In this document: piece after piece, positions 3,673 through 22,780 of the stretch
Layout: each line of letters opens with the position of its first letter
Numbering within the stretch: the stretch's first letter is position 1
Source of the DNA: Escherichia phage CBA6
Sequence record: KM389296.1
Direction: 5' to 3' (one strand)
DNA length: 24,317 nucleotides
Program-made: the position numbers and the translations under genes
Notes under the pieces: generated by a model
Told to the model about the DNA's origin: nothing
What the model saw: the letters and a program-made list of their open reading frames with translations, nothing else
Databases searched by the model: none

Positions 3673-4776
3673 TTAAACAAATTTCAGACCGTCGGAGACT
3701 GATCCAGTAAGGACACCAGTCAGATAATCAGGGGCTTCCGCTTCCTGTAATGCGTATTGCATTGTTTTATTATCTAGCCACTCATTTATCCATGGAACCG
3801 GATTGTCTTTACGGGCTTGCCCAGGGTACGGGTGGCCAATCGCGCCCATACGATGTGTTGCTAGCCAATCAACCATTTGGTGTAAGATATTTGCGTTCAG
3901 ACCCAGCATGGATCCGTCTTTGAACAGATAGTTCGCCCACTCTTTCTCTTGGTTGACCACATCCACATACATCTGGGTCATTTCGCCACGCAGTTCTTCA
4001 CGGATGATACCAAAATCAGGGTCCAACAACGGAAGACGATTCAGGAAAGTCTGTGTCAGAATGAGGTGATCTTGCTCGTCACGAGCGATCTGGCGAATAA
4101 TCTTGGCATTACCTTCCATTTTGTTGAGGAATTGCATGAATGCCCAAGAGCATGCGAATGAAACATAGAAACGGACGCCTTCGAGGGAGTTAGCAGCAAA
4201 CAGAGCACGCCAGAATGCACGCTTGGCGTTCATGATGTCTTCACGGGTGAACGCGCGTCCAGCCATACGCATCCCGCTGTAACGCACCATGTCGTCGTAG
4301 TATACGCTGATCTGTCCGGCGCAATCTACGATCTCCTCAACGTCCAGAACATGGTCAAAAACGATACCAGGATCATTCACTGTGTTACGAAGGATATGCG
4401 TGTAAGATAGTGAGTGGATGGCTTCTTGGCGCGTCCATTCCAGAATAGCAAATTGCGCTTCTGGTGTTGATGCCCACGGGCCAAACGCTTCGAACGGAGC
4501 AGCGCCCTGAATAGAGTCCAGCATGGTTTGGCGTTTCAGGTTGCTGAAGTAGATGTGTTGTTCCGCAGCGGATAGAGTGGCAAAGTCCGCTTTGTCTTTG
4601 GTGACATCCACTTCTTCCGGACGCCAGAATTGGCTGAGGCCTTTTTCATACCATTTTTGAACAAAAGGCCAAGCCACTTTGTCATAACGCTGGATACTTA
4701 CAGGGTCGCCAAAGAATGGCAGTCCTGTATTATTTGAAGATGGATCGAATACTGAGAATTGCTTTTGTTCGTTCAT
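3673..4776 (-). CDS. nrdB: Ribonucleotide reductase class Ia beta subunit
   Basis: Collinear with E. coli NrdB: FFGDPVSIQRYD, FWRPEEVDV, SYTHIL, RFYVSFACS, MEGNAKIIRQIARDE, PWINEWL. Uninterrupted. Confidence 0.95.
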   Translation of the reverse strand: MNEQKQFSVFDPSSNNTGLPFFGDPVSIQRYDKVAWPFVQKWYEKGLSQFWRPEEVDVTKDKADFATLSAAEQHIYFSNLKRQTMLDSIQGAAPFEAFGPWASTPEAQFAILEWTRQEAIHSLSYTHILRNTVNDPGIVFDHVLDVEEIVDCAGQISVYYDDMVRYSGMRMAGRAFTREDIMNAKRAFWRALFAANSLEGVRFYVSFACSWAFMQFLNKMEGNAKIIRQIARDEQDHLILTQTFLNRLPLLDPDFGIIREELRGEMTQMYVDVVNQEKEWANYLFKDGSMLGLNANILHQMVDWLATHRMGAIGHPYPGQARKDNPVPWINEWLDNKTMQYALQEAEAPDYLTGVLTGSVSDGLKFV

Positions 4777-13041: not shown

Positions 13042-15762
13042 TTATTTCAGACGGATCTGGAGATTACCACCCAGTGATTGTTCATATTCACTGTAAGCAC
13101 TGTCACCATTGCTCATAGCCCATTCGTCCGACTGACGGGCGCTATCCAAAGTCATGAGATTCGGTTCGGTCGGGTTGTATCCCTTCGCCTTCGCATCGTT
13201 GTATACCGTTTGCAGGTACTGGTTGGCACGGTTAATCTGATCTTTGAACTCACGATATGCACCTTCGGTTGTGTTGCGACGGAAGGTGATACTCCAATCG
13301 ACGTTAAGAACTGCGCCGCTATTGGTCACGTATACCTGCCAATCAAGATCTCGTCCGTTGGGAGCACTGTTGCGGATGGAATCGGAATATGTGGCCAGAT
13401 CGCTGCTGTTCTTGCCCCCAGCAGCTTGGTCTTTGGCGCGAGCCAGGGCATCAATGACTGCAGTGCGGTTTCTAGACTGCGCCAGATCTTTGTCTTGGAA
13501 CATAATTGCACCAAACTTACTGACGGTGATATCATTCAGAAACAGCTTGTTCGGGTTATAGTTTGATGAACTGAGATGGCTCAATTGAGCCGCAGCGTCT
13601 TTCAGGCGTTGTGAAGTCTCATTCAACGCATCTTGCACAGACTTGACAGATAACTGAATGTCATATCCGCTGCTGTTGACTACATTTCGGCCATTTTCGG
13701 TCAGCATGGTCGTGATGTTGGCCTTATTACGATCGAAGTCGTAAGTCACGTTCGTAACGAACCGTGCGGCTTGCAGCTGGCTACCCGCAGGGAACTGGAA
13801 GTCCCAAGCCACAGAGAACCCATGAACGGTTTCACCAAATATCTTCGCATTGCTTGGGGCTTTCAGGTTCGCAGTGATGACAGCGTTATCACTGGAATTT
13901 GTGTTGATTTCGCCGAAGATAGTCTTCCCATCAGAAGACTGGACCATCAGAGTATCTTTGCTGCGCCAGTCATAACGAACAATAAACGTCGTTCGAGGGA
14001 ACTCTTTTATCAGATCGAGTTTGACTGCCTTACCCAGAGTAAAACGATTTAACAATGCATCGGCGATCTTCAAAGTAAACGAAATACAATCGACATAAGA
14101 ATAACCCTGGGAACGGGAAACCTTTTGAATCGGGTATGGGGCACCGTTGATCGGAACAACACGACATTCCACTTCACCTTTGAACTGAGAATCAGCAGCG
14201 CGGGATATCGCACTGACGATTTCAAAAGCAGCGTTTTTCACGTCGCCTTCCAGCAGCAGCTGTTCATTGCCAGATAAATCAGAAACCACTTCTACAGAGA
14301 GTTTGCTGTTGACAATCCCCCAAAAATAGACTTGAATATCCAACCCGCCAGAAGTTCGATATTTGCCAGCACCAACCCGAGACAATTTTTCACCAGCATA
14401 CATGCCGACTTGCTGAGGAGCATATGTATCAACGATGCCCAAGATGCGGGCGATATAACCCTGGTTGCGCAGATCATCCATAGAACCGGTTTTTGGAAGA
14501 GTTTTCATGTCGACGGGAGCAGTAGCCCCTATTCCAAACTCGACGTATGCCACGATCTTCCCACCAGACTTCAGTTCCCAGCCCATTCCCTGACGGTCTG
14601 AAGCCGCCATGATTTTGCGATCCACTTCTCCACGCCCGACATATTCTTTGTTGAATACCGTCACTTGTGCGATAGACTGAGTGCGGGCAATCTTCGCCAT
14701 CGCGCCATCTTTGACCATGATAGCCAGGTCATTGGAACTCAGGGTCACGTCGTTCGCGCCGACCACCTTCACAACAGAACTGAAGATGCCGTTGGACTTT
14801 GCCATAACGGAGATGTTCCAGTCCGGATTTATGGAAGACGGTGCATCAGCATCAACGTCAACAGTCAAAACCACTTGCCCACCTTTCTTGAACACATACT
14901 GATCATAGATGCCTTTATTTTGTTTTGTCATGACAGCGCCGACCAGATCCTGGTTAGTGAATCCCCGCTTCATGCTCCATGCCACTTCGGTGCCGTCCGG
15001 ATATTTGTCGAAATCATACCCAAAGAACTTCGCCACTTCACGTGAGCCACTGACCAGCTGCACGTAATTTCCGCGAATTGGGTCACGGCCATTTTTCAGT
15101 TCAAGACTAGTGTCAGAACTGTTATACCATTGGCGGTTTACTTCAATCTCGGTGCTGGAGCCAGTCCCAACATCAGGGGTGTTGTTCTGAACCGGAACGT
15201 CTCCGACTTTGTCTGGATCGTCCCAAGTCACGCCTTTCATTTTCGGACCATCAAATACCTGAGCAGGATCCTTGCCTTTACGCACAACCCATACGAAGGC
15301 ACGGTCAGGGATTGGGGTATAAGTCAGATCCATGACGTTGAGTTTCTGCTTCAGACCAGATTGACGAATAATTTTTGGGAGTAACGTCGTTCCGCGTTCT
15401 AGAGCTTTCTTGGAGAAGTTAATCGCAAACCCATCAATGGTTTTACCCAGCGGTGTCGCCATGAATTGTTTAGTCGCTTCGATCATGGATGCGATGACAC
15501 GCATTGGGTTTTTGAAACGACCGATTGCGTCTGGATAGGTTGAACCACGTTTCTGGCCTATGAAGACCTGACGAACGTTCTTGCCCAGCCCCTGCGGGGT
15601 ATAAAATTGGATGCGGAATTCTTTTTCATCTTCGTCTACGAACGTGAAGAAAATGTCACCAGCATTTTTCTTGCCGAAAGTCAATTCGTATGGAGCGGAG
15701 TTAAACGCTTCGTCCAATTGTTTGGACTCGTCAAGGAAATTTAAGAAAGATTGGATGGCCAT
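13042..15762 (-). CDS. Large hypothetical protein (906 aa), function unknown
   Basis: Uninterrupted 2.7-kb ORF with ATG and AGGAG Shine-Dalgarno (AGGAGAATTACAATG); bracketed by hairpins; no catalytic motif recognised. Confidence 0.8.
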   Translation of the reverse strand: MAIQSFLNFLDESKQLDEAFNSAPYELTFGKKNAGDIFFTFVDEDEKEFRIQFYTPQGLGKNVRQVFIGQKRGSTYPDAIGRFKNPMRVIASMIEATKQFMATPLGKTIDGFAINFSKKALERGTTLLPKIIRQSGLKQKLNVMDLTYTPIPDRAFVWVVRKGKDPAQVFDGPKMKGVTWDDPDKVGDVPVQNNTPDVGTGSSTEIEVNRQWYNSSDTSLELKNGRDPIRGNYVQLVSGSREVAKFFGYDFDKYPDGTEVAWSMKRGFTNQDLVGAVMTKQNKGIYDQYVFKKGGQVVLTVDVDADAPSSINPDWNISVMAKSNGIFSSVVKVVGANDVTLSSNDLAIMVKDGAMAKIARTQSIAQVTVFNKEYVGRGEVDRKIMAASDRQGMGWELKSGGKIVAYVEFGIGATAPVDMKTLPKTGSMDDLRNQGYIARILGIVDTYAPQQVGMYAGEKLSRVGAGKYRTSGGLDIQVYFWGIVNSKLSVEVVSDLSGNEQLLLEGDVKNAAFEIVSAISRAADSQFKGEVECRVVPINGAPYPIQKVSRSQGYSYVDCISFTLKIADALLNRFTLGKAVKLDLIKEFPRTTFIVRYDWRSKDTLMVQSSDGKTIFGEINTNSSDNAVITANLKAPSNAKIFGETVHGFSVAWDFQFPAGSQLQAARFVTNVTYDFDRNKANITTMLTENGRNVVNSSGYDIQLSVKSVQDALNETSQRLKDAAAQLSHLSSSNYNPNKLFLNDITVSKFGAIMFQDKDLAQSRNRTAVIDALARAKDQAAGGKNSSDLATYSDSIRNSAPNGRDLDWQVYVTNSGAVLNVDWSITFRRNTTEGAYREFKDQINRANQYLQTVYNDAKAKGYNPTEPNLMTLDSARQSDEWAMSNGDSAYSEYEQSLGGNLQIRLK

Positions 15763-15843: not shown

Positions 15844-16212
15844 TTATAACCCTTCAATCCTTACGTTGACATATTTTGTTTCGTAATTCGGGTCACGGCC
15901 TTCAGAGTAGTCATATGTCTGAATGGTCTGTACGCACAGAGTTATTTTGAATTTGGCAATCTTCATAACCGCGATGCCAAAGTCAACCAGGTCATCCTTT
16001 TTATCTAGCACCAGGCCTTTAGTGCCGAGTTCACGTAATAAGTCTTTAAACAAGCGCTTGGACGGGTTGCTGATATCGAGCGGACCAGTTTTACACAGGG
16101 GAAACCCCTTGATGATTTTGTTGCTACGGTCACGCGCGATTTTATTGTTCCCACGACGAATATTCTTGTACCCAGCAACGTTTAGAATGTTGTTCAATTC
16201 AGTTTTGGTCAT
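15844..16212 (-). CDS. Hypothetical protein (122 aa)
   Basis: ATG 16212 preceded by the conserved leader AGCAGGAACTACATC; the track's 16233 start is TTG. Basic, Lys-rich. Confidence 0.6.
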   Translation of the reverse strand: MTKTELNNILNVAGYKNIRRGNNKIARDRSNKIIKGFPLCKTGPLDISNPSKRLFKDLLRELGTKGLVLDKKDDLVDFGIAVMKIAKFKITLCVQTIQTYDYSEGRDPNYETKYVNVRIEGL

Positions 16213-16285
16213 GATGTAGTTCCTGCTTTTCAAGTTGGTGTCGTACTGCTTATGTTTAGAATTATACGGTAGTTATTGAAGAAGT

Positions 16286-16309
16286 AAAGGGGCGTTTGCC
16301 CCTTTTATT
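16286..16309. terminator. Bidirectional rho-independent terminator
   Basis: AAAGGGGC / GCCCCTTT stem with GTTT loop; TTTTATT on the plus side and TTTACTTCTTC on the minus side. Confidence 0.65.
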
Positions 16310-16317
16310 GAATTATT

Positions 16318-16956
16318 TTAAGGTGTGGGATTGACGACAGGGATGTGAAATCTGATTCCAGCAACGATGTCCTTCAGCTGAGGCTTCCAGCCGTCCACCA
16401 GGCGGGACAACGCATTGGAACCAGGATAGACGATAATGATATCGCTTCCGGTAACATTATGCTGAGGGAATTGTGACATGTATTGCTCCATCGTCACACC
16501 TGTGTCAATCAATACAGGACCAACATCAGAAGATGCATATGTCGCGCCCAGACCGTCAATACCCCATGCCAGAATTCCATAATCGGGAATATTGGCTTCG
16601 GATGTTATGGTGTATCCGAAGATACGATTCAACGCCGAGAAGTCATAGACATTGTGAGCACTATCATATGCCAGATAACCTTTGGCCAACATATCAGCAA
16701 AGATCGCGTCTGTGTCGCCAGCGGCTGGGGTCGGAACGGTAAACAGTAGCTCACCTGCCGGAGGAGTAGGATACGTGCCGAGAGCATAAAGGCACCATGC
16801 GTCGACACATTTCTTGATAAACGCTTCGGGAGCAACATAATCAGCCAGGCGCATCGTTCCAGAATATTCAGAACTGATGATGCCTTCTTTTGCCCCCTGA
16901 ATCGCAATAAACACCATTAAGTGCTCGTATCCGGTCTGAGATGGAGTGATATTCAT
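16318..16956 (-). CDS. Hypothetical protein (212 aa)
   Basis: ATG overlaps the stop of the upstream SLT-like gene by 1 nt (TAATG); no signal peptide; no recognisable motif. Confidence 0.6.
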   Translation of the reverse strand: MNITPSQTGYEHLMVFIAIQGAKEGIISSEYSGTMRLADYVAPEAFIKKCVDAWCLYALGTYPTPPAGELLFTVPTPAAGDTDAIFADMLAKGYLAYDSAHNVYDFSALNRIFGYTITSEANIPDYGILAWGIDGLGATYASSDVGPVLIDTGVTMEQYMSQFPQHNVTGSDIIIVYPGSNALSRLVDGWKPQLKDIVAGIRFHIPVVNPTP

Positions 16957-17573
16957 TATCGGGTCCTCTTGAGTTTCTCAATCGTGCGCTTATTCATGGC
17001 GATCACTCCTGGGTCGACCTTCGGGTTTATTGCCATGCCTTTGAAAGACACACATCGTTGAAGATATTTAGCCTTCTTCACGACATCAGCAGCGTATGAA
17101 TTGGATTTTTGGTTACGACTGAAACCGGCATTGTAAGAGGAGAGCGATTTGCGGATGTTTTGGTTATGATACCCAAGCCAGAAATTCATTTCATCAAGGG
17201 CTGCATTGGCTGCGTACTCTTGATTGACCAGCAATTTAATCGCCACGTTGGCGTAACACTTCTGTGTTTTGCATCCCTCCCGTTTCCCAACGGTTTGGAC
17301 GCGATTTTGGAATGCCCCCATATTAGCCGATTTCAGGTTATTCCGCATGGATACCACATCTTCTCCGGCGCGGCTTTCCCTCCATGATATCGCGGCTAGG
17401 GTGAAACCAAGGTCTTGCTGTTTGCCTATGTGATAGGCAGTGGCCATAGTTGAAAGTTGCTGATCAGAAAATTCGTAATCACATTGGGTGGTACTTTGGG
17501 AAGCGTACACACTCCCGCTGGCAATGGTAAAGGTCACGGACAAGGCCATGGCCTTCAACGTTGTCATCGTCAT
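16956..17573 (-). CDS. Secreted lytic transglycosylase-like protein (SLT domain) with N-terminal signal peptide
   Basis: N-terminus MTMTTLKAMALSVTFTIASGSVYA looks like a Sec signal peptide; SLT family motifs in order: WRESRAG (catalytic E-S), NMGAFQ, SYNAGF, YAADVVKKAKY. Confidence 0.65.
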   Translation of the reverse strand: MTMTTLKAMALSVTFTIASGSVYASQSTTQCDYEFSDQQLSTMATAYHIGKQQDLGFTLAAISWRESRAGEDVVSMRNNLKSANMGAFQNRVQTVGKREGCKTQKCYANVAIKLLVNQEYAANAALDEMNFWLGYHNQNIRKSLSSYNAGFSRNQKSNSYAADVVKKAKYLQRCVSFKGMAINPKVDPGVIAMNKRTIEKLKRTR

Positions 17574-17639
17574 GATGGCGTTCCTTATGTGTTTGTCGAC
17601 TTGCAGCTCGATTGAGCCTCCTGACAGGGTTAAAAGATA

Positions 17640-17665
17640 AAGGGCACTTGATATTTAGTGCCCTT
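17640..17665 (-). terminator. Rho-independent terminator ending the recombination/late-sigma operon
   Basis: Stem AAGGGCACT / AGTGCCCTT with 8-nt loop; on the minus strand followed by TATCTTTTAACC. Confidence 0.6.
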
Positions 17666-17669
17666 CACC

Positions 17670-17954
17670 TTATTCGTAGATCAGATGGTATGATTCCTCA
17701 ATACACTCTATCCAGCCGTAGACAAACTCCATAGGATCGTCCCATGCTGATTTTGATGCCACTATGAAATCCCCTTGGAGGATTTGCATATCTGTGTACT
17801 TGTTGAAACCCAAGACGGCGTCAACAACGATCAACCCACCTTGCTCTAGGTAACGTTTTGGTGTCAATGCTACCTGATGATGTTTATTTCGCTGATTCCA
17901 TAATTCCACAGCGATATCACAAGCAATCTGTATTTCATCTTTCTCTTCTGACAT
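17670..17954 (-). CDS. Hypothetical protein (94 aa)
   Basis: ATG start overlapping the 3' end of the upstream gene by 20 nt; acidic; no recognisable motif. Confidence 0.5.
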   Translation of the reverse strand: MSEEKDEIQIACDIAVELWNQRNKHHQVALTPKRYLEQGGLIVVDAVLGFNKYTDMQILQGDFIVASKSAWDDPMEFVYGWIECIEESYHLIYE

Positions 17955-18264
17955 ATGTTTGTCTCAAATATTCAGTAAAAGATTTACCTAACTTACGGAA
18001 TAGTTTAATACGACCGATCACTTTGACGTAAACATCCCCGTGACAGGGGCGTGGTTTACACCAGCACCCTAGAATCTTTCCGTCCAGTTCAAGGAGTTCA
18101 TCCTCAGTGATTTCCCCTTCAATCAGACGCACATACAAATCGTCTTCGAATAACTCGATACAAACGCCGCGCCCATGGTCTTTGACTTCGAAGTCATTAC
18201 CCCATTTGCCAGGCCGCCCAATGTAGACGTCATATGGCTCCTTCTTGAAGTGGACGACTTTCAC
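17935..18264 (-). CDS. DUF4326-like protein (109 aa)
   Basis: Motifs VYIGRPGKWGN and LGCWCKPRPCHGDV match my recollection of the DUF4326 family; GTG start overlapping the upstream stop (GTGA). Confidence 0.55.
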   Translation of the reverse strand: MKVVHFKKEPYDVYIGRPGKWGNDFEVKDHGRGVCIELFEDDLYVRLIEGEITEDELLELDGKILGCWCKPRPCHGDVYVKVIGRIKLFRKLGKSFTEYLRQTYVRRER

Positions 18265-18569
18265 GACATGTCCTCATAATTCGATAGATTGATCAGGAAA
18301 GACAGATTCCGGTCTTCGACAAGGTCAATTGCCTTGCGACTGCCCACAGCCTCACATGTCCAATACTTGTAATTTCCTGCGATCTTCATCGCCAAACGGA
18401 TAACGCGTTGCTTCATCTGGTACTGGGCGACTTGGTAGCGGACACGCGTCTTCTTGCGCCAGCATTGATTCTCAGCAGTGTACTTGTAGAGGATCATCAG
18501 GCGAACAGCTTTGTACAGGCGCTTTTCAGCGCCCTTGGATTTCTTTGATACACGGATCAGACTTCCCAT
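18261..18569 (-). CDS. Hypothetical basic protein (102 aa)
   Basis: ATG at 18569 two nt after the gp46 stop; the track's 18575 start is TTG. Lys/Arg-rich. Confidence 0.5.
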   Translation of the reverse strand: MGSLIRVSKKSKGAEKRLYKAVRLMILYKYTAENQCWRKKTRVRYQVAQYQMKQRVIRLAMKIAGNYKYWTCEAVGSRKAIDLVEDRNLSFLINLSNYEDMS

Positions 18570-18571
18570 GA

Positions 18572-20905
18572 TCAATCCTTCTTAATCACTTCAGTCATGC
18601 CATTACGCAGACCATAACGGATGTTGTGTTGGAAATACTCTTGGAATTCCTGCTCGCGTTGACTGATAACGAACAGATTGTTCCCGCCAAATTTATGCTT
18701 CAGCATCTCAACCGATTCTTGTACGCCGCGCTCACTCATGTTCTCAAGGATTTCATCTAACACAAACAGGTTACATTGCACCGACGCCTTGAGGTTTGCA
18801 ACATCTCGTAAAGCTAATGTCACAGCCAGGTTCAGGCGACTACGCTGACCAGTAGATAATGAGAAGATGCTTTGCCCTTTACGACCTGCAGCGCTCATGG
18901 TGATTTCAAATGTATCATCAACAGCAATATCCAAGAACATATTGAGTGCTTCAAGATACTCGTTTATTTTACTATTGAGGAAAGGCAAATACAGGCTGAT
19001 AATTCGAGCCTTGGTCTGATCATCTTTTAGGAAGAACAGAAGATGGTTCAGGTCTTGCAATTTCTCATCCAACTCTACGCGCCGCGCATTCAGATCTTCC
19101 ATTAACGCCGTGATGCGAGCGATCTCTTCTTCCAGGGCGTCAGTTGGTGTCGGCTTAACCGCCAATTTACGCTCTAAATCGGCAATGGATGCCTCCAGAG
19201 GGGCACGGCGTGATTTCAGGCTGGTGAGTTTATCAGCCGTGTCGTTGATGCTCTTAGAGAGCTGCTCACGCGCTTGACGGATTGACGTCGTGATATCTTC
19301 ATAACGGGTGTCTACGGCCTTGAGGACGTCGTTAATTTTGGACTGTTGTTCCCGCTGTAAAGATGTTTTCTCAACAGCTGCCACATCATAGAATCCTTGG
19401 ATGTCGCGTTTTAATGCAGCGATCGCAGATTCCGCTTCTCGGATTTCATTGCGCAAAGCATCCAGTTCTTTGTCAACAACCGAAATCTGAGAAGATAATT
19501 CTGAATCTTTGACGTTGTAATTCTCAATCAGGGAATTAACTTCTTCTAGGGCTGTGTCAACCTGAAGAATCTTGTCAGTCAGTTCACTGATTTGTGGATA
19601 ATATTGACTTTCAATGCGTGATTTGGTATCGTCCGACACTAATTGCGTACACGTAGGGCAAGTGCCCATATCGTGGAAACGTTTGATGGCAGATTCATGT
19701 CCTTCCATTTCTGTTACGAATTTGATACGGAAGTTCTCACCCTGCTGACGCCGCGCTAATGCTTTGTTCAGTTCATCCAGGTTAGCATTCCGTTGGCTGA
19801 CCAGATCATTTTTACGTTCCGCGACTACCGCCATTCTCTCCCGAATTTCTTGTAATGAACGTTCGCCATCAGACACCTCGATACGTTCATAGTCTTCAGC
19901 CTTGGTATCAGCCTCATCCTGAACCGCTTGAATTTTGGCAAAATACTCGTCATTGATGGAATCGATATCCACCTTCATTTCAGCGTTCAGGCGATTACGG
20001 ACTTCTGATAATTCTGATTCCAATTTAGAGTCTTGAGCACGGGACTCTGTCAGTTGTTCCTGCACTGCGCCGATATCTGAATTCAGGCTATTCAGACGTT
20101 CCTTCTCTTGGACAAGGATATCCGCAGATTGTTGCTGAATCATCGCATTGGAATTATTGATCTGTTCCAACTGCGCTTGCTGGCCTTTTAGATTCACATC
20201 ATGAAAGGCGTAATCATTGGTGACCGTCGTGAGTTCGTTCGTTACCGCCTTGATAGATGCTTTAACATCCTCATTCATCAGGCTGAAGAAACCCAAGTCC
20301 CAAATTGTTTCAACCATGGCGCGGCGGTCAGCAGTATACATCTCTGTGAAAGGAATAAACTTCTCCTTGCCCAGAACCAAAGAGTTCTCGAACATCTTCT
20401 GGTCCACGCCGATGAGATTCACGATGTACTTGTTCATATCAGCTTTGGCCGCATCGTTCACGACTTGCTTCCACTCTCCTTCCACCATCTGATAAACTTC
20501 TACAAAATCTGGTTTGATACCCCGACGGACTTTCCATTCACTACCGCGAGTTGAGAACTCAACTTCACCCACGCATTCCTTTTTGTTTTGAGAGTTAACC
20601 AATCCGGCTTTCTTCTCTTTCTTGCTGTACGTGTCGTTGTACAGAACGAAGAACAGCAGCCAGACAAGCATGGTGGATTTACCAGCGCCATTGTCATCGG
20701 ATGTAACCAAGGTTGCCGAATTGCGTTGGTAATCAATTTCCATGAATTCATTACCGATAGAACGAAAGTTCTTAGCGCGACCACGATGGAAAGTCAGTTT
20801 GTGAGTAATTTCCCCACGGATTTCAAATGGTGCTTCAACAATAACAGGAGCGTCCGCTTCTTTCAACAGCGAACCAAATTTTGATAATAGATCTACGTTG
20901 CTCAT
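18572..20905 (-). CDS. Recombination endonuclease ATPase subunit (T4 gp46 / Rad50 / SbcC-like), 777 aa
   Basis: Walker A DNGAGKST, long coiled-coil, zinc hook CPTC, ABC signature LSTGQRSR, Walker B LFVLDEILE. Confidence 0.9.
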   Translation of the reverse strand: MSNVDLLSKFGSLLKEADAPVIVEAPFEIRGEITHKLTFHRGRAKNFRSIGNEFMEIDYQRNSATLVTSDDNGAGKSTMLVWLLFFVLYNDTYSKKEKKAGLVNSQNKKECVGEVEFSTRGSEWKVRRGIKPDFVEVYQMVEGEWKQVVNDAAKADMNKYIVNLIGVDQKMFENSLVLGKEKFIPFTEMYTADRRAMVETIWDLGFFSLMNEDVKASIKAVTNELTTVTNDYAFHDVNLKGQQAQLEQINNSNAMIQQQSADILVQEKERLNSLNSDIGAVQEQLTESRAQDSKLESELSEVRNRLNAEMKVDIDSINDEYFAKIQAVQDEADTKAEDYERIEVSDGERSLQEIRERMAVVAERKNDLVSQRNANLDELNKALARRQQGENFRIKFVTEMEGHESAIKRFHDMGTCPTCTQLVSDDTKSRIESQYYPQISELTDKILQVDTALEEVNSLIENYNVKDSELSSQISVVDKELDALRNEIREAESAIAALKRDIQGFYDVAAVEKTSLQREQQSKINDVLKAVDTRYEDITTSIRQAREQLSKSINDTADKLTSLKSRRAPLEASIADLERKLAVKPTPTDALEEEIARITALMEDLNARRVELDEKLQDLNHLLFFLKDDQTKARIISLYLPFLNSKINEYLEALNMFLDIAVDDTFEITMSAAGRKGQSIFSLSTGQRSRLNLAVTLALRDVANLKASVQCNLFVLDEILENMSERGVQESVEMLKHKFGGNNLFVISQREQEFQEYFQHNIRYGLRNGMTEVIKKD

Positions 20906-20907
20906 TA

Positions 20908-22023
20908 TTATGCATCCAATGTGTTCAGGCGTTGTTGGGCAGCATTATAGAATTGTTCTGCTAATTTGCAAACATTTTCAGGGCGCTGGATATTATTGGC
21001 GGCGCGGATATCTTTCTTTAGGACTTCCACAGCATCAGTCGCCACCATCTCTTCAGTGACTTCTACCTTCTCAGACGAGACTGTGATAGTCCGATCTATA
21101 AAGTTGTAATCGATGCATTTACAGCGCTTCAGCGCGTCGCAGAACTTTTCATAATGCTTGGCATTATCGCGGTTCTGTACAATCACTTTAACGATTTGCC
21201 CTTCAATACCCAAACCATTGTTTAGCCAATCTGGGTCAATCCAGTTTCCTTCGGTGTCGGAAGACATTTGGGTGTAGTCGTATTCGATGAATCGGAACAA
21301 CGTTTGTTGCTCGTTGTTGGGAATAAACAATTCCCCGCCTTTCATGTCGTCTACATAGAATCCTCGGTTCGTCCCGTCTTTATGGTCTTCCCAGGTAAGG
21401 TGATAAGGAGTCCCAATATACTGAATGTTACCTTCCATCGAACGGGTATGGAAATGTCCGGTATCCACGCGCTCGAACTTGGAAAGGAGCGCCAAGTCGA
21501 TCTGACCTTTATCACATACAGAGGACTGGTACATTTTGAACCCTGCCAACTCCAGATGCGCAAAACAGTACTTGGCGTCTGTATCTTGTATCGCTTTAAC
21601 AGATGCATCATAATTCTCTTTATTGATCCATGGGAGAAGCAATACCTTTTCGCCTTCAATCGAAACTTCAGTGGGTTCACTGTAATAATGATAGACGTCT
21701 GGCGCTAATTCATTCAGATAGGATGGCCAGTTGATACGGTTAGATTCTTCTAAGGTGATATCATGGTTTCCAACGATGCCATTCCATTTGATACCCGCCT
21801 TTCTCAGGGCTGGAGTCAGTTCATCTTTCAACCAATCTTTGTCGCGCCCGTACATAAATTTACGAACATCAAATGTGTCGCCGAATTGCCAAACTTCTTT
21901 AATGTCTGCATCTACCAATTCGGGAATAAAATAGTTGATGAGATAATTCTTTATGAATTCACGAACGTAACGGGAACCATTGCGGCTCCCGATGTGTAAA
22001 TCGCCAATTTTAGCAATCGCCAT
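20908..22023 (-). CDS. Recombination nuclease subunit (T4 gp47 / Mre11 / SbcD-like), 371 aa
   Basis: Calcineurin-like phosphoesterase motifs (IGDLHIG, GDTFD, GNHD, GHFH). The track's 22038 start is TTG; ATG 22023 has a GGAG Shine-Dalgarno. Confidence 0.9.
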   Translation of the reverse strand: MAIAKIGDLHIGSRNGSRYVREFIKNYLINYFIPELVDADIKEVWQFGDTFDVRKFMYGRDKDWLKDELTPALRKAGIKWNGIVGNHDITLEESNRINWPSYLNELAPDVYHYYSEPTEVSIEGEKVLLLPWINKENYDASVKAIQDTDAKYCFAHLELAGFKMYQSSVCDKGQIDLALLSKFERVDTGHFHTRSMEGNIQYIGTPYHLTWEDHKDGTNRGFYVDDMKGGELFIPNNEQQTLFRFIEYDYTQMSSDTEGNWIDPDWLNNGLGIEGQIVKVIVQNRDNAKHYEKFCDALKRCKCIDYNFIDRTITVSSEKVEVTEEMVATDAVEVLKKDIRAANNIQRPENVCKLAEQFYNAAQQRLNTLDA

Positions 22024-22780
22024 TATTCTTTTCTCCAACTGATTCGGCTAACAATGTGGGGCTGTCCATTATATCTTCAAGACTAAATTGAGTAGAGCCG
22101 AAGTCATTATCTGAATTATCTTCGGCGTCAGCGGTAATGGTATTTTCACTCTTCGTAAGACATTGAAGTATACCGCGAGGGATTTTCTTATTCTTTTCCT
22201 CTTCTTTGATAGCCGTTTGTTTTTGGCGTTCCTTTTCACGCTGGGCTTCTTTCTTATTTTCGAAATTACCGATGCGTTCACGAAAGTCCATCGTTATCCC
22301 AGTGCTATCAACGAAGGTTTGTTGTTGGAAGTCTGGGTCATCCGATAAAGCTGCGAACCCACCTGCTTCTTCAAAGGAACGCAATTTAATATAGTTGTGT
22401 TCTTCTTCACTCGTGAGTTTCTTGGCGAATGAGCGATCAGCACACATAGTCACCCAAGAGAAGAAGTTGATCTTTCCTTTCTTGCCGATATGGCTAACAT
22501 CAAAGGTGTGAAGGTAACGAAGGATGTTCACAACCGCTTCACTCACCATGTCTTCACGATATGGATAATCACGGTAGTTGTAGCGCATACTCATATTCTT
22601 GATTATCATCTGAACATTCATGGCCACATAATTGGGGATTCTTGGTAGGGGTGTTCCTTCGGCTAATGCCTTTTTACGAGCAGGGATCCAATCACGCAAT
22701 ATCCCCACAACTCGATCGTTATCTTCGTCAGTGAAATATTTGGTGACGTTATCACCCCTGTCTACAAAATTCATACCCAT
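22010..22780 (-). CDS. Late-transcription sigma factor (T4 gp55-like) with extended charged C-terminus
   Basis: Collinear with recalled T4 gp55 (ILRDWI; YVAMNVQMIIKNMSMRYNYRDY...LHTFD; NFFSWVTMCADRSFAKKL); position next to gp47/gp46 as in T4. The track's 22795 start is TTG; ATG 22780 has a GAGGA Shine-Dalgarno. Confidence 0.7.
   Translation of the reverse strand: MGMNFVDRGDNVTKYFTDEDNDRVVGILRDWIPARKKALAEGTPLPRIPNYVAMNVQMIIKNMSMRYNYRDYPYREDMVSEAVVNILRYLHTFDVSHIGKKGKINFFSWVTMCADRSFAKKLTSEEEHNYIKLRSFEEAGGFAALSDDPDFQQQTFVDSTGITMDFRERIGNFENKKEAQREKERQKQTAIKEEEKNKKIPRGILQCLTKSENTITADAEDNSDNDFGSTQFSLEDIMDSPTLLAESVGEKNNGDC

What the first reader, a model, noticed from the sequence alone, without database searches (positions are those of the whole stretch)
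17935..18264. DUF4326-like protein with GTG start inside the recombination operon
The motifs VYIGRPGKWGN and CWCKPRPCHGDV match the DUF4326 family as I recall it, a phage-associated domain whose function I cannot state. It is wedged between two small basic/acidic orphans downstream of gp46 with overlapping stop/start codons (GTGA), so it is co-expressed with the recombination nuclease.
Basis: partly seen in the sequence, partly recalled or inferred. Interest (0 to 1): 0.45.

Follow-up and report, generated by a model that had tools for sequence, protein, structure and literature searches.

The report
Known DUF4326 (T4 NrdA.1-like) phage gene
This is a real but already catalogued small phage gene, the Vi01-like phage copy of T4 nrdA.1 (Pfam DUF4326): it sits behind the recombination nuclease genes, its biochemical function is still untested, and several close relatives have lost it.

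Summary
Window 17935..18264 (minus strand) is a 109-aa ORF with a GTG start. It matches Pfam DUF4326 at E=1.7e-22 (80 bits against a cutoff of 25). The window is a Kuttervirus (Vi01-like Ackermannviridae), 99.4% identical to Salmonella phage Matapan. Public records already annotate this gene as 'NrdA.1' or 'DUF4326', and it is 45% identical to T-even NrdA.1.

The gene lies in an unbroken minus-strand string: gp47, gp46, DUF7175, DUF4326, ORF94, then a strong terminator hairpin. Where it is intact it is under strong purifying selection (median dN/dS 0.04). It is nevertheless dispensable. CBA120-type Kutterviruses keep only codons 67-109, the sampled Dickeya Limestoneviruses lack the N-terminus, and Klebsiella phage May is frameshifted. 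All of them keep gp46/gp47. Outside Ackermannviridae the family sits next to other DNA and nucleotide-metabolism genes, so nothing ties it specifically to recombination.

The AlphaFold model is confident (pLDDT 91) but resembles no solved structure. I confirmed fusions to SLOG domains and found BFVD matches to SLOG- and NADAR-labelled viral proteins.

My best reading is an accessory Cys/His enzyme acting on phospho-ribose moieties, as Aravind's group predicted. This is inferred, not shown. The finding is ordinary and of low interest.

The parts
17935..18264 (-). DUF4326 / NrdA.1-like gene: 109 aa, GTG start at 18264..18262, TGA stop at 17937..17935. The Pfam domain covers residues 3-79. Residues 80-109 form a basic C-terminal helical extension (pI 11.4) seen in the Ackermannviridae copies compared.
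18271..18275 (-). Shine-Dalgarno GAGGA, 6 nt upstream of the GTG start.
   Evidence: an RBS is annotated at the equivalent place in phage Mooltan
18261..18569 (-). Upstream ORF, 102 aa from ATG 18569, basic (pI 10.1), Pfam DUF7175 and PHROG 4651. Its TGA stop overlaps the GTG start (GTGA). This slot is variable among Ackermannviridae.
17670..17954 (-). Downstream ORF94, acidic (pI 4.5), PHROG 4165. It overlaps the DUF4326 3' end by 20 nt and is retained in the Ackermannviridae loci compared, including those that lost DUF4326.
17634..17671 (-). Hairpin that ends the gene string: core GC stem 17642..17663, then a U-rich tract 17632..17641. dG is -22.6 kcal/mol and z is -6.1.
   Evidence: a terminator is annotated at the equivalent position in phage Mooltan
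18572..20905 (-). gp46-like Rad50/SbcC-type recombination nuclease ATPase subunit, 777 aa.
20908..22038 (-). gp47-like Mre11/SbcD-type nuclease subunit. The ORF finder starts it at a TTG; public records annotate a 371-aa product.

Best explanation
The ORF is a genuine, translated accessory gene of a Vi01-like Kuttervirus. It encodes a stand-alone DUF4326 domain and is the counterpart of T4/T2 NrdA.1.

It is most likely transcribed with gp47, gp46, DUF7175 and ORF94 as one unit and translated by coupling to the upstream ORF through the GTGA overlap.

The protein most likely folds into a small alpha/beta domain. The invariant residues H5, D12, R17, N23, K63, C67, C69, C74, H75 and D77 lie after strands beta1 and beta3 and in the loop that leads into helix 75-91. 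I infer that they form a Cys/His active site.

Following the contextual prediction of Iyer, Burroughs and Aravind, the domain probably removes or transfers a phosphate attached to a ribose. The substrate would be an ADP-ribose or NAD-derived nucleotide, or a nucleic-acid terminus.

In the phage this would be a conditionally useful function, such as counter-defence or nucleotide/DNA-end housekeeping, and not a core part of gp46/gp47 recombination.

Shown: gene reality, family membership, operon layout, purifying selection, dispensability and the domain fusions. Inferred: catalysis, the substrate and the biological role.
For: Identity:
- Pfam DUF4326 at E=1.7e-22.
- 45% identity to T2/T4 NrdA.1 at E=2e-13.
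- Already labelled NrdA.1 or DUF4326 in Vi01, PhiSH19 and phage sal1.

Real gene:
- Median dN/dS is 0.038 and the maximum is 0.115 over 95 pairs.
- An SD sequence and a conserved start codon position are present.

Operon:
- The ORFs are contiguous, and a terminator hairpin with z=-6.1 follows them.

Fold:
- The AF2 model has pLDDT 91.3 and pTM 0.83, and beta3 (64-66) leads through the Cys-rich loop into helix 75-91.
- Invariant polar, Cys and His residues are listed.

Function context:
- I confirmed fusions to SLOG domains (YAcAr PF10686, and a sub-threshold DprA-like match) in actinobacterial genomes.
- BFVD matches include proteins labelled DUF2493 (which I take to be a SLOG family) and NADAR-plus-phosphatase.
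- Published predictions link DUF4326 to ADPr/NAD processing and place it in the rhodanese-phosphatase superfamily (PMC9503650; PMC7824862).
- LOG-like homologues of the anti-Avs protein ORF83 are fused to DUF4326 in amoeba viruses (bioRxiv 10.1101/2025.06.06.658234).
- 12 of 42 family members give weak hits in the same general C-terminal register to Pfam DUF488-N3a.

Accessory status:
- The gene has been lost independently in CBA120-type phages, the sampled Limestoneviruses and phage May.
- Gene neighbours vary widely across phages.
Against: - I found no experimental report for any DUF4326 protein. Eight papers mention the family and none is biochemical.
- Profile comparisons with YeaO-type DUF488 are not significant.
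- Three invariant Cys plus His could equally be a structural zinc site.
- The Vi01-clade allele, which includes this window, carries D24 where at least 90% of the family has Pro.
- There are no PADLOC or NCBIfam matches.
Confidence: 0.4

Rival explanations
1. DUF4326 is a dedicated helper of the gp46/gp47 (Rad50/Mre11-type) nuclease. It would clean blocked DNA ends, for example 3'-phosphates or ADP-ribosyl adducts, so that recombination-dependent replication can proceed.
For: The gene lies within a few hundred bases downstream of gp46 on the same strand in every Ackermannviridae locus examined, whatever occupies the slot between them. From my own recollection of Burroughs and Aravind 2023 (the paper is not held), some members of the RapZ-C/DUF488/DUF4326 clade are predicted to process DNA ends. 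Distant homologues often sit next to nucleases and recombination genes such as Metallophos, ExoX, RecA, YqaJ and SMC_N/AAA_23.
Against: CBA120-type Kutterviruses, the sampled Limestoneviruses and phage May have lost the gene but keep gp46/gp47 full length at up to 99% identity. In T2 the homologue lies between nrdA.2 and nrdA, not beside genes 46/47. No single neighbour is conserved across phages.
Confidence: 0.12
2. The protein is a non-catalytic zinc-binding protein. C67, C69 and C74, together with H5 or H75, would coordinate a structural zinc. The protein would then bind nucleic acid or a host protein, helped by its basic C-terminal tail, and act as a regulator or inhibitor.
For: The invariant CxCx4CH motif plus the invariant H5 at the end of strand beta1. 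The basic tail has pI 11.4. The protein is small and has no structural match to known enzymes.
Against: Other invariant polar residues (D12, R17, N23, K63, D77) are more typical of an active site. Repeated fusion to ligand-binding or enzymatic SLOG and NADAR-labelled domains suggests a metabolic partner activity. The basic tail lies outside the Pfam domain, and most family members align only to about residues 1-85.
Confidence: 0.2
3. The protein is a thiol-redox or other accessory factor of ribonucleotide reductase or nucleotide synthesis, as the historical name NrdA.1 suggests.
For: In T2 the gene overlaps the start of nrdA and follows thymidylate synthase. Neighbours elsewhere include thymidylate synthase, dUTPase and thioredoxin. 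The protein has three invariant Cys.
Against: In Ackermannviridae the gene is not next to the RNR genes. The RNR labels on this family look like a transfer from the T4 gene name nrdA.1, and the Mooltan annotators themselves flag the nrdA hits as wrong. The family also occurs in bacterial loci next to SSB, RNase H and ArdC-like genes.
Confidence: 0.05
4. The gene is a decaying or neutral passenger with no current function in this phage.
For: It has been lost or truncated independently in three lineages. The Vi01-clade allele has a P24D change at a nearly invariant position and a weaker GTG start.
Against: dN/dS is 0.03-0.06 between the window copy and diverged intact copies (dS 0.7-2.2). All invariant residues are intact, and the SD sequence and coupling overlap are preserved.
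Confidence: 0.03

Closest known systems
T4/T2 NrdA.1 (Tequatrovirus nrdA.1 product)
   Same: Same Pfam family. It is 45% identical over residues 2-86 at E=2e-13. It is likewise small, single-domain and uncharacterised.
   Different: In T2 it lies in the td-nrdA.2-nrdA.1-nrdA nucleotide-synthesis cluster, whereas here it lies downstream of gp46/gp47. The alignment to NrdA.1 stops at about residue 86, so the basic C-terminal extension (residues 80-109) is not shared in alignable form.
Vi01_099c 'NrdA.1' of Salmonella phage Vi01, and the DUF4326 proteins of other Kutterviruses (PhiSH19, sal1, Matapan, Mooltan_119)
   Same: Essentially the same gene, with an amino-acid sequence identical to Vi01 and Mooltan, the same GTG start and the same neighbours.
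   Different: Nothing of substance. This window is another isolate of the same gene.
DUF488 (E. coli YeaO; Pfam PF04343, PF22751, PF22752) and the RapZ C-terminal domain, grouped with DUF4326 in the rhodanese-phosphatase superfamily by Burroughs and Aravind 2023. The citation was seen. The paper's content is from my own recollection, because the paper is not held.
   Same: 12 of 42 DUF4326 proteins give sub-threshold hits to DUF488-N3a. Where inspected, these hits cover the C-terminal half, ending near profile position 116-117 of 118, and so include the strand, Cys-His loop and helix region. By eye, the order of conserved elements resembles that of YeaO.
SLOG/LOG-DUF4326 and NADAR-DUF4326 fusion proteins of giant viruses, phages and actinobacteria, including amoeba-virus homologues of the anti-Avs protein ORF83
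   Same: They contain the same DUF4326 domain (BFVD Foldseek hits; Pfam results; literature).
   Different: The window protein is a stand-alone domain. No SLOG, Macro or NADAR match was found among the six adjacent minus-strand ORFs scanned (15844-18575).

Membership tests
Pfam DUF4326 (PF14216) / T4 NrdA.1 family | Score above the Pfam gathering threshold over the full domain. | tested here: met
   80.3 bits against a cutoff of 25, E=1.7e-22; protein residues 3-79 align to profile positions 3-80 of 82.
Pfam DUF4326 (PF14216) / T4 NrdA.1 family | Family-invariant residues: H5, Y11-D12, R17, N23, K63, G66-C67-x-C69, P71 and C74-H75-G76(-D77). | tested here: met
   All are present in the window protein. 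The only departure is D24, where at least 90% of members have Pro.
Pfam DUF4326 (PF14216) / T4 NrdA.1 family | Detectable homology to the founding phage member, T-even NrdA.1. | tested here: met
   tblastn gives 45% identity at E=2e-13 to the T2 and T4 nrdA.1 loci.
Rhodanese-phosphatase superfamily (RapZ-C / DUF488 / DUF4326 clade) | Structural similarity to solved rhodanese, PTP or RapZ-C domains. | tested here: not met
Rhodanese-phosphatase superfamily (RapZ-C / DUF488 / DUF4326 clade) | A conserved Cys in a strand-loop-helix cradle at the C-terminal edge of a parallel sheet. | tested here: inconclusive
   The AF2 secondary structure places beta3 at 64-66, C67/C69/C74 in the following loop and a helix from residue 75. 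Only three short strands are predicted, and I could not inspect the coordinates.
Rhodanese-phosphatase superfamily (RapZ-C / DUF488 / DUF4326 clade) | A sequence-profile link to DUF488. | tested here: inconclusive
   12 of 42 members hit PF22751 DUF488-N3a below threshold, with a best E of 0.0096 and scores of 14-15 bits against a cutoff of 27 where inspected. hhalign against YeaO alignments gives a probability below 1%.
Rhodanese-phosphatase superfamily (RapZ-C / DUF488 / DUF4326 clade) | Cys-dependent phosphate or thio transfer activity. | not testable with these tools
   This needs biochemistry.
gp46/gp47 recombination-nuclease operon (functional module) | Same strand, no internal terminator and a shared 3' terminator. 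| tested here: met
   The ORFs from 22038 to 17670 are contiguous or overlapping. The hairpin terminator at 17634-17671 has z=-6.1.
gp46/gp47 recombination-nuclease operon (functional module) | Linkage conserved beyond the immediate family, and co-retention with gp46/gp47. | tested here: not met
   The linkage holds within Ackermannviridae. In T2 the homologue is next to nrdA. gp46/gp47 are intact in phages that lost DUF4326.
NADAR (PF08719) | Sequence or structural homology to YbiA/NADAR. | tested here: not met

The most novel reading that the evidence does not exclude
DUF4326 is a phage counter-defence enzyme. It would dismantle a phospho-ribose-containing immune product, either an ADP-ribose-derived second messenger or an ADP-ribosyl/phosphate block placed on phage DNA ends. 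Ackermannviridae would then keep it beside gp46/gp47 because the two act on the same damaged or modified DNA ends. Under this reading the natural deletion in CBA120-type phages would reflect hosts that lack the cognate defence.
Probability: 0.12. Interest if true: 0.6.

Novelty: already known. Interest (0 to 1): 0.15.

Why it matters
DUF4326 is a large family with no experimentally assigned function that I could find. It has 23,897 clusters at 50% identity and homologues in 2,095 of 50,697 phage records. It occurs in phages, archaeal viruses, giant viruses and cellular mobile elements.

This particular copy adds nothing new to the catalogue. The survey done here does give one practical handle. 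Near-isogenic Kutterviruses exist with an intact gene (Vi01, Matapan, Mooltan) and with a deleted gene (CBA120, PhaxI, S117, S118). A host-range or defence-system comparison of these phages could cheaply reveal a phenotype for the family, T4 NrdA.1 included.

Tried and rejected
- PDB sequence searches with the protein and with the family profile found no real hits.
- I tested the DUF488 link with E. coli YeaO as a single sequence, as a 14-sequence alignment and as a larger alignment. None was significant. Only the weak Pfam DUF488-N3a hits remain.
- NCBIfam and PADLOC gave no match for the three small ORFs.
- I looked for a conserved gene partner in 52 distant viral loci and 80 cellular loci. 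Only a general DNA replication, recombination and nucleotide-metabolism or mobile-element context emerged, with no constant neighbour.
- A search for a T4-type late promoter (TATAAATA) found none in the window. The sigma-70-like hits inside the operon are no more than consensus matches. Rfam found nothing.
- I checked whether the gene is a mosaic import. Its nucleotide identity to relatives (80-86%) is only modestly below that of its flanks (88-92%), so I did not pursue this.
- The key classification paper (Burroughs and Aravind 2023, NAR Genom Bioinform lqad029, PMC10034599) is not held. What I say about its content is from memory.

Full report
**What is there**

On the minus strand, 17935..18264 is a 109-aa ORF that begins with GTG. 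Its sequence is MKVVHFKKEPYDVYIGRPGKWGNDFEV...ILGCWCKPRPCHGDVYVKV.... The ORF matches Pfam PF14216 (DUF4326) at E=1.7e-22, 80.3 bits against a gathering cutoff of 25, over residues 3-79. It also matches PHROG 464, a family of unknown function, at E=4e-44.

**Start codon and junctions**

- A GAGGA Shine-Dalgarno sequence (18275..18271) lies 6 nt before the GTG at 18264.
- The protein has no internal Met.
- Its N-terminus MKVVH equals the family consensus, with V4 and H5 invariant.
- Other Ackermannviridae carry ATG at exactly this codon. GTG is a peculiarity of the Vi01 clade.
- The GTG overlaps the TGA stop of the upstream ORF (GTGA, 18264..18261).
- The downstream ORF starts at ATG 17954, so that junction is a 20-nt overlap and not a second GTGA.

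**Where the window comes from, and prior annotation**

The region is 99.4% identical to Salmonella phage Matapan and 98.6% identical to phage Vi01 (Kuttervirus, Ackermannviridae). In Vi01 this gene is Vi01_099c, annotated 'nrdA.1 / NrdA.1'. In phage sal1 it is 'protein of unknown function DUF4326'. The PhiSH19 genome paper of 2011 lists it as NrdA.1 (PMC3220722). A tblastn search finds homologues in 2,095 of 50,697 phage records. These include T2 and T4 nrdA.1 at 45% identity and E=2e-13. The gene is therefore already catalogued.

**Operon layout**

The minus-strand genes follow without gaps:

| Element | Coordinates |
|---|---|
| gp47-like | 22038..20908 |
| gp46-like | 20905..18572 |
| DUF7175 | 18569..18261 |
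| DUF4326 | 18264..17935 |
| ORF94 | 17954..17670 |

A hairpin at 17634..17671 follows, with a trailing U-tract, dG -22.6 kcal/mol and z=-6.1. The phage Mooltan record annotates a terminator at the equivalent place. Co-transcription with gp46/gp47 is a sound inference from this layout, but it has not been demonstrated.

They are not orphans, however. The upstream ORF is Pfam DUF7175 and PHROG 4651, and the downstream ORF is PHROG 4165.

**Conservation and loss**

Across Ackermannviridae loci the order is gp47, gp46, a variable slot, DUF4326, an optional insert, ORF94, a terminator, the SLT-like ORF and DUF7270. The slot after gp46 holds one of three things: DUF7175 (at 99%, 75% or 46% identity), unrelated sequence, or nothing. 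The DUF4326 start always abuts or overlaps whatever precedes it.

Intact copies are under strong purifying selection. By the Nei-Gojobori method over 104 codons and 15 sequences, the median dN/dS is 0.038 and the maximum is 0.115. Comparisons with the window give dS of 0.7-2.2.

The gene has nevertheless been lost repeatedly.

- A deletion leaves only codons 67-109 in CBA120, PhaxI, S115, S117, S118, STML-13-1, Se-B and Se-D, aagejoakim, rabagast and others. This amounts to about 23 GenBank/RefSeq records.
- Every Dickeya Limestonevirus record listed covers only 76% of the gene and lacks the N-terminal segment that carries H5, D12 and R17.
- Klebsiella phage May has an internal deletion with a frameshift.

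Overall, 230 of 273 records with a DNA match cover at least 80% of the gene. In every one of the loss cases examined, gp46 and gp47 are full length. The gene is therefore functional where present, but it is accessory and it is not needed by the nuclease.

**Context elsewhere**

In T2 the homologue lies between nrdA.2 and nrdA, downstream of thymidylate synthase.

In 52 distant viral loci the neighbours are a mixture of DNA replication, recombination and nucleotide-metabolism genes. They include a GyrB-like topoisomerase, an AAA ATPase, ExoX/RNase_T, Metallophos, dUTPase, PolB, thymidylate synthase, RecA, YqaJ and endonuclease I. No partner is constant.

In bacterial and archaeal genomes the family also occurs: 199 confirmed stretches from only two peptide patterns. 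One recurrent acidobacterial string reads SSB, DUF7831, DUF4326, a 588-aa protein of unknown function, SSB, RNase H. Other loci carry ArdC-like and Fic genes, which suggests mobile-element cargo.

The family as a whole is large, with 23,897 clusters at E<=1e-3 among 1.84 billion representatives. Some proteins carry two or three tandem copies of the domain.

**Structure and family relations**

AlphaFold2 with a 42-sequence alignment gives a confident model, with pLDDT 91.3 and pTM 0.83. It has three short strands (2-4, 13-14, 64-66) and helices at 27-30, 32-49, 54-58, 75-91 and 96-108. The last two helices include the basic tail seen in the Ackermannviridae copies.

The family-invariant residues are H5, Y11, D12, R17, N23, K63, G66, C67, C69, P71, C74, H75 and G76, with D77 nearly invariant. 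They cluster after beta1, in the loop after beta2, and in the beta3-loop-helix element. This is typical of an active site or a metal site at the C-terminal edge of a parallel sheet. That reading is an inference from secondary structure, because I could not inspect the coordinates.

No solved structure resembles the model.

- Foldseek against the PDB finds nothing better than E=2.7.
- PDB sequence searches are empty.

Against viral predicted structures (BFVD) the model matches DUF4326 proteins of phages, haloarchaeal viruses and giant viruses. These include multidomain proteins labelled DUF2493 (which I take to be a SLOG family) and 'NADAR domain with protein tyrosine phosphatase'. I confirmed DUF4326-SLOG fusions in actinobacterial genomes, to YAcAr PF10686 and, below threshold, to a DprA-like domain.

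**What is known or predicted about the family**

I found no experimental work. [quoted passage not shown] They also propose that it bridges NAD-based signalling with DNA modification, replication and restriction-modification systems (PMC7824862).

A 2025 preprint notes that LOG-like homologues of the anti-Avs protein ORF83 in amoeba viruses carry a C-terminal DUF4326.

The dedicated classification paper (Burroughs and Aravind 2023; citation seen) is not held. From memory, it defines a RapZ-C/DUF488/DUF4326 clade and predicts DNA-end processing for some members.

My own tests of that placement are weak.

- 12 of 42 family members give sub-threshold hits to Pfam DUF488-N3a. Where inspected, these cover the C-terminal half.
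- hhalign against E. coli YeaO alignments is not significant.
- The structure searches returned no rhodanese-type fold.

**Most likely mechanism**

I commit to the following with about 0.4 confidence for the whole chain. The gene is co-transcribed with gp47, gp46, DUF7175 and ORF94 and is translated by coupling. The product is a small Cys/His-dependent enzyme that acts on a phosphate attached to a ribose. Its substrate is an ADP-ribose or NAD-derived nucleotide or a nucleic-acid terminus. Its role is conditionally useful, such as counter-defence or nucleotide and DNA-end housekeeping.

The rivals are:

| Rival | Confidence |
|---|---|
| Non-catalytic zinc-binding factor | 0.2 |
| Dedicated end-cleaning helper of gp46/gp47 | 0.12 |
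| RNR/thiol-redox accessory | 0.05 |
| Decaying passenger | 0.03 |

The gp46/gp47 helper model is weakened by the loss of DUF4326 with gp46/gp47 retained, and by the T-even context. The decaying-passenger model is contradicted by dN/dS.

**Verdict**

The gene is an already annotated member of a known family of unknown function, so its novelty is 'already known' and its interest is low (0.15). The one useful by-product is the list of natural deletion variants among otherwise near-identical Kutterviruses. These would make a phenotype for DUF4326/NrdA.1 cheap to look for.

Noticed in passing
window 16956..17573 (-): This 205-aa ORF is labelled 'RegB' or 'site-specific RNA endonuclease' in several GenBank Kuttervirus records. 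Pfam gives only a borderline lytic-transglycosylase SLT match (21.1 bits against a cutoff of 21.3). The N-terminus looks like a signal peptide (MTMTTLKAMALSVTFTIASGSVYA). The RegB label is probably an annotation error that has been propagated.
   Followed up: partly
window 18261..18569 (-), and the equivalent slot in L003-L025: The slot between gp46 and DUF4326 is a hotspot of small-gene turnover in Ackermannviridae. It holds DUF7175 at 99%, 75% or 46% identity, unrelated sequence, a small membrane-like ORF (phage May), or nothing. A further insert of about 350 nt separates DUF4326 from ORF94 in L010-L012, L015, L016 and L018.
   Followed up: partly
window 18193..18195 (-), codon 24 of the DUF4326 gene: The Vi01-clade allele, which includes this window, has Asp where at least 90% of the family has Pro (GNPF becomes GNDF). 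It also uses GTG instead of ATG as the start. Other Ackermannviridae keep Pro and ATG. The functional consequence is unknown.
   Followed up: no
L019-L021 around 3990-4130; GenBank CBA120, PhaxI, S117, S118, STML-13-1 and others: In the deletion allele the remaining 43 C-terminal codons of DUF4326 are 100% identical in amino-acid sequence to the window. One possible reason is that they contain the start region of ORF94, which overlaps them.
   Followed up: partly
L100, L129, L130, L141 and related acidobacterial loci; L135; L088, L113: DUF4326 also occurs in cellular genomes. One recurrent string reads SSB, DUF7831, DUF4326, a 588-aa protein of unknown function, SSB, RNase H. Other loci carry ArdC-like anti-restriction and Fic genes. 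Actinobacterial copies are fused to SLOG domains: YAcAr, and a sub-threshold DprA-like match.
   Followed up: partly
proteins P0121-P0124 (metagenomic): These proteins of 288-352 aa carry two or three tandem DUF4326 domains.
   Followed up: no
window 13042..15762 (-): This is a large 906-aa ORF of unknown function. The Vi01 counterpart is annotated at 2,400 nt, so its length varies between close relatives, and its internal regions align only patchily to other Kutterviruses.
   Followed up: no
whole window: There is no Rfam family match. There is no T4-type late promoter motif TATAAATA on either strand, even though public records annotate a gp55-type late sigma factor just upstream of gp47 in this region.
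   Followed up: no
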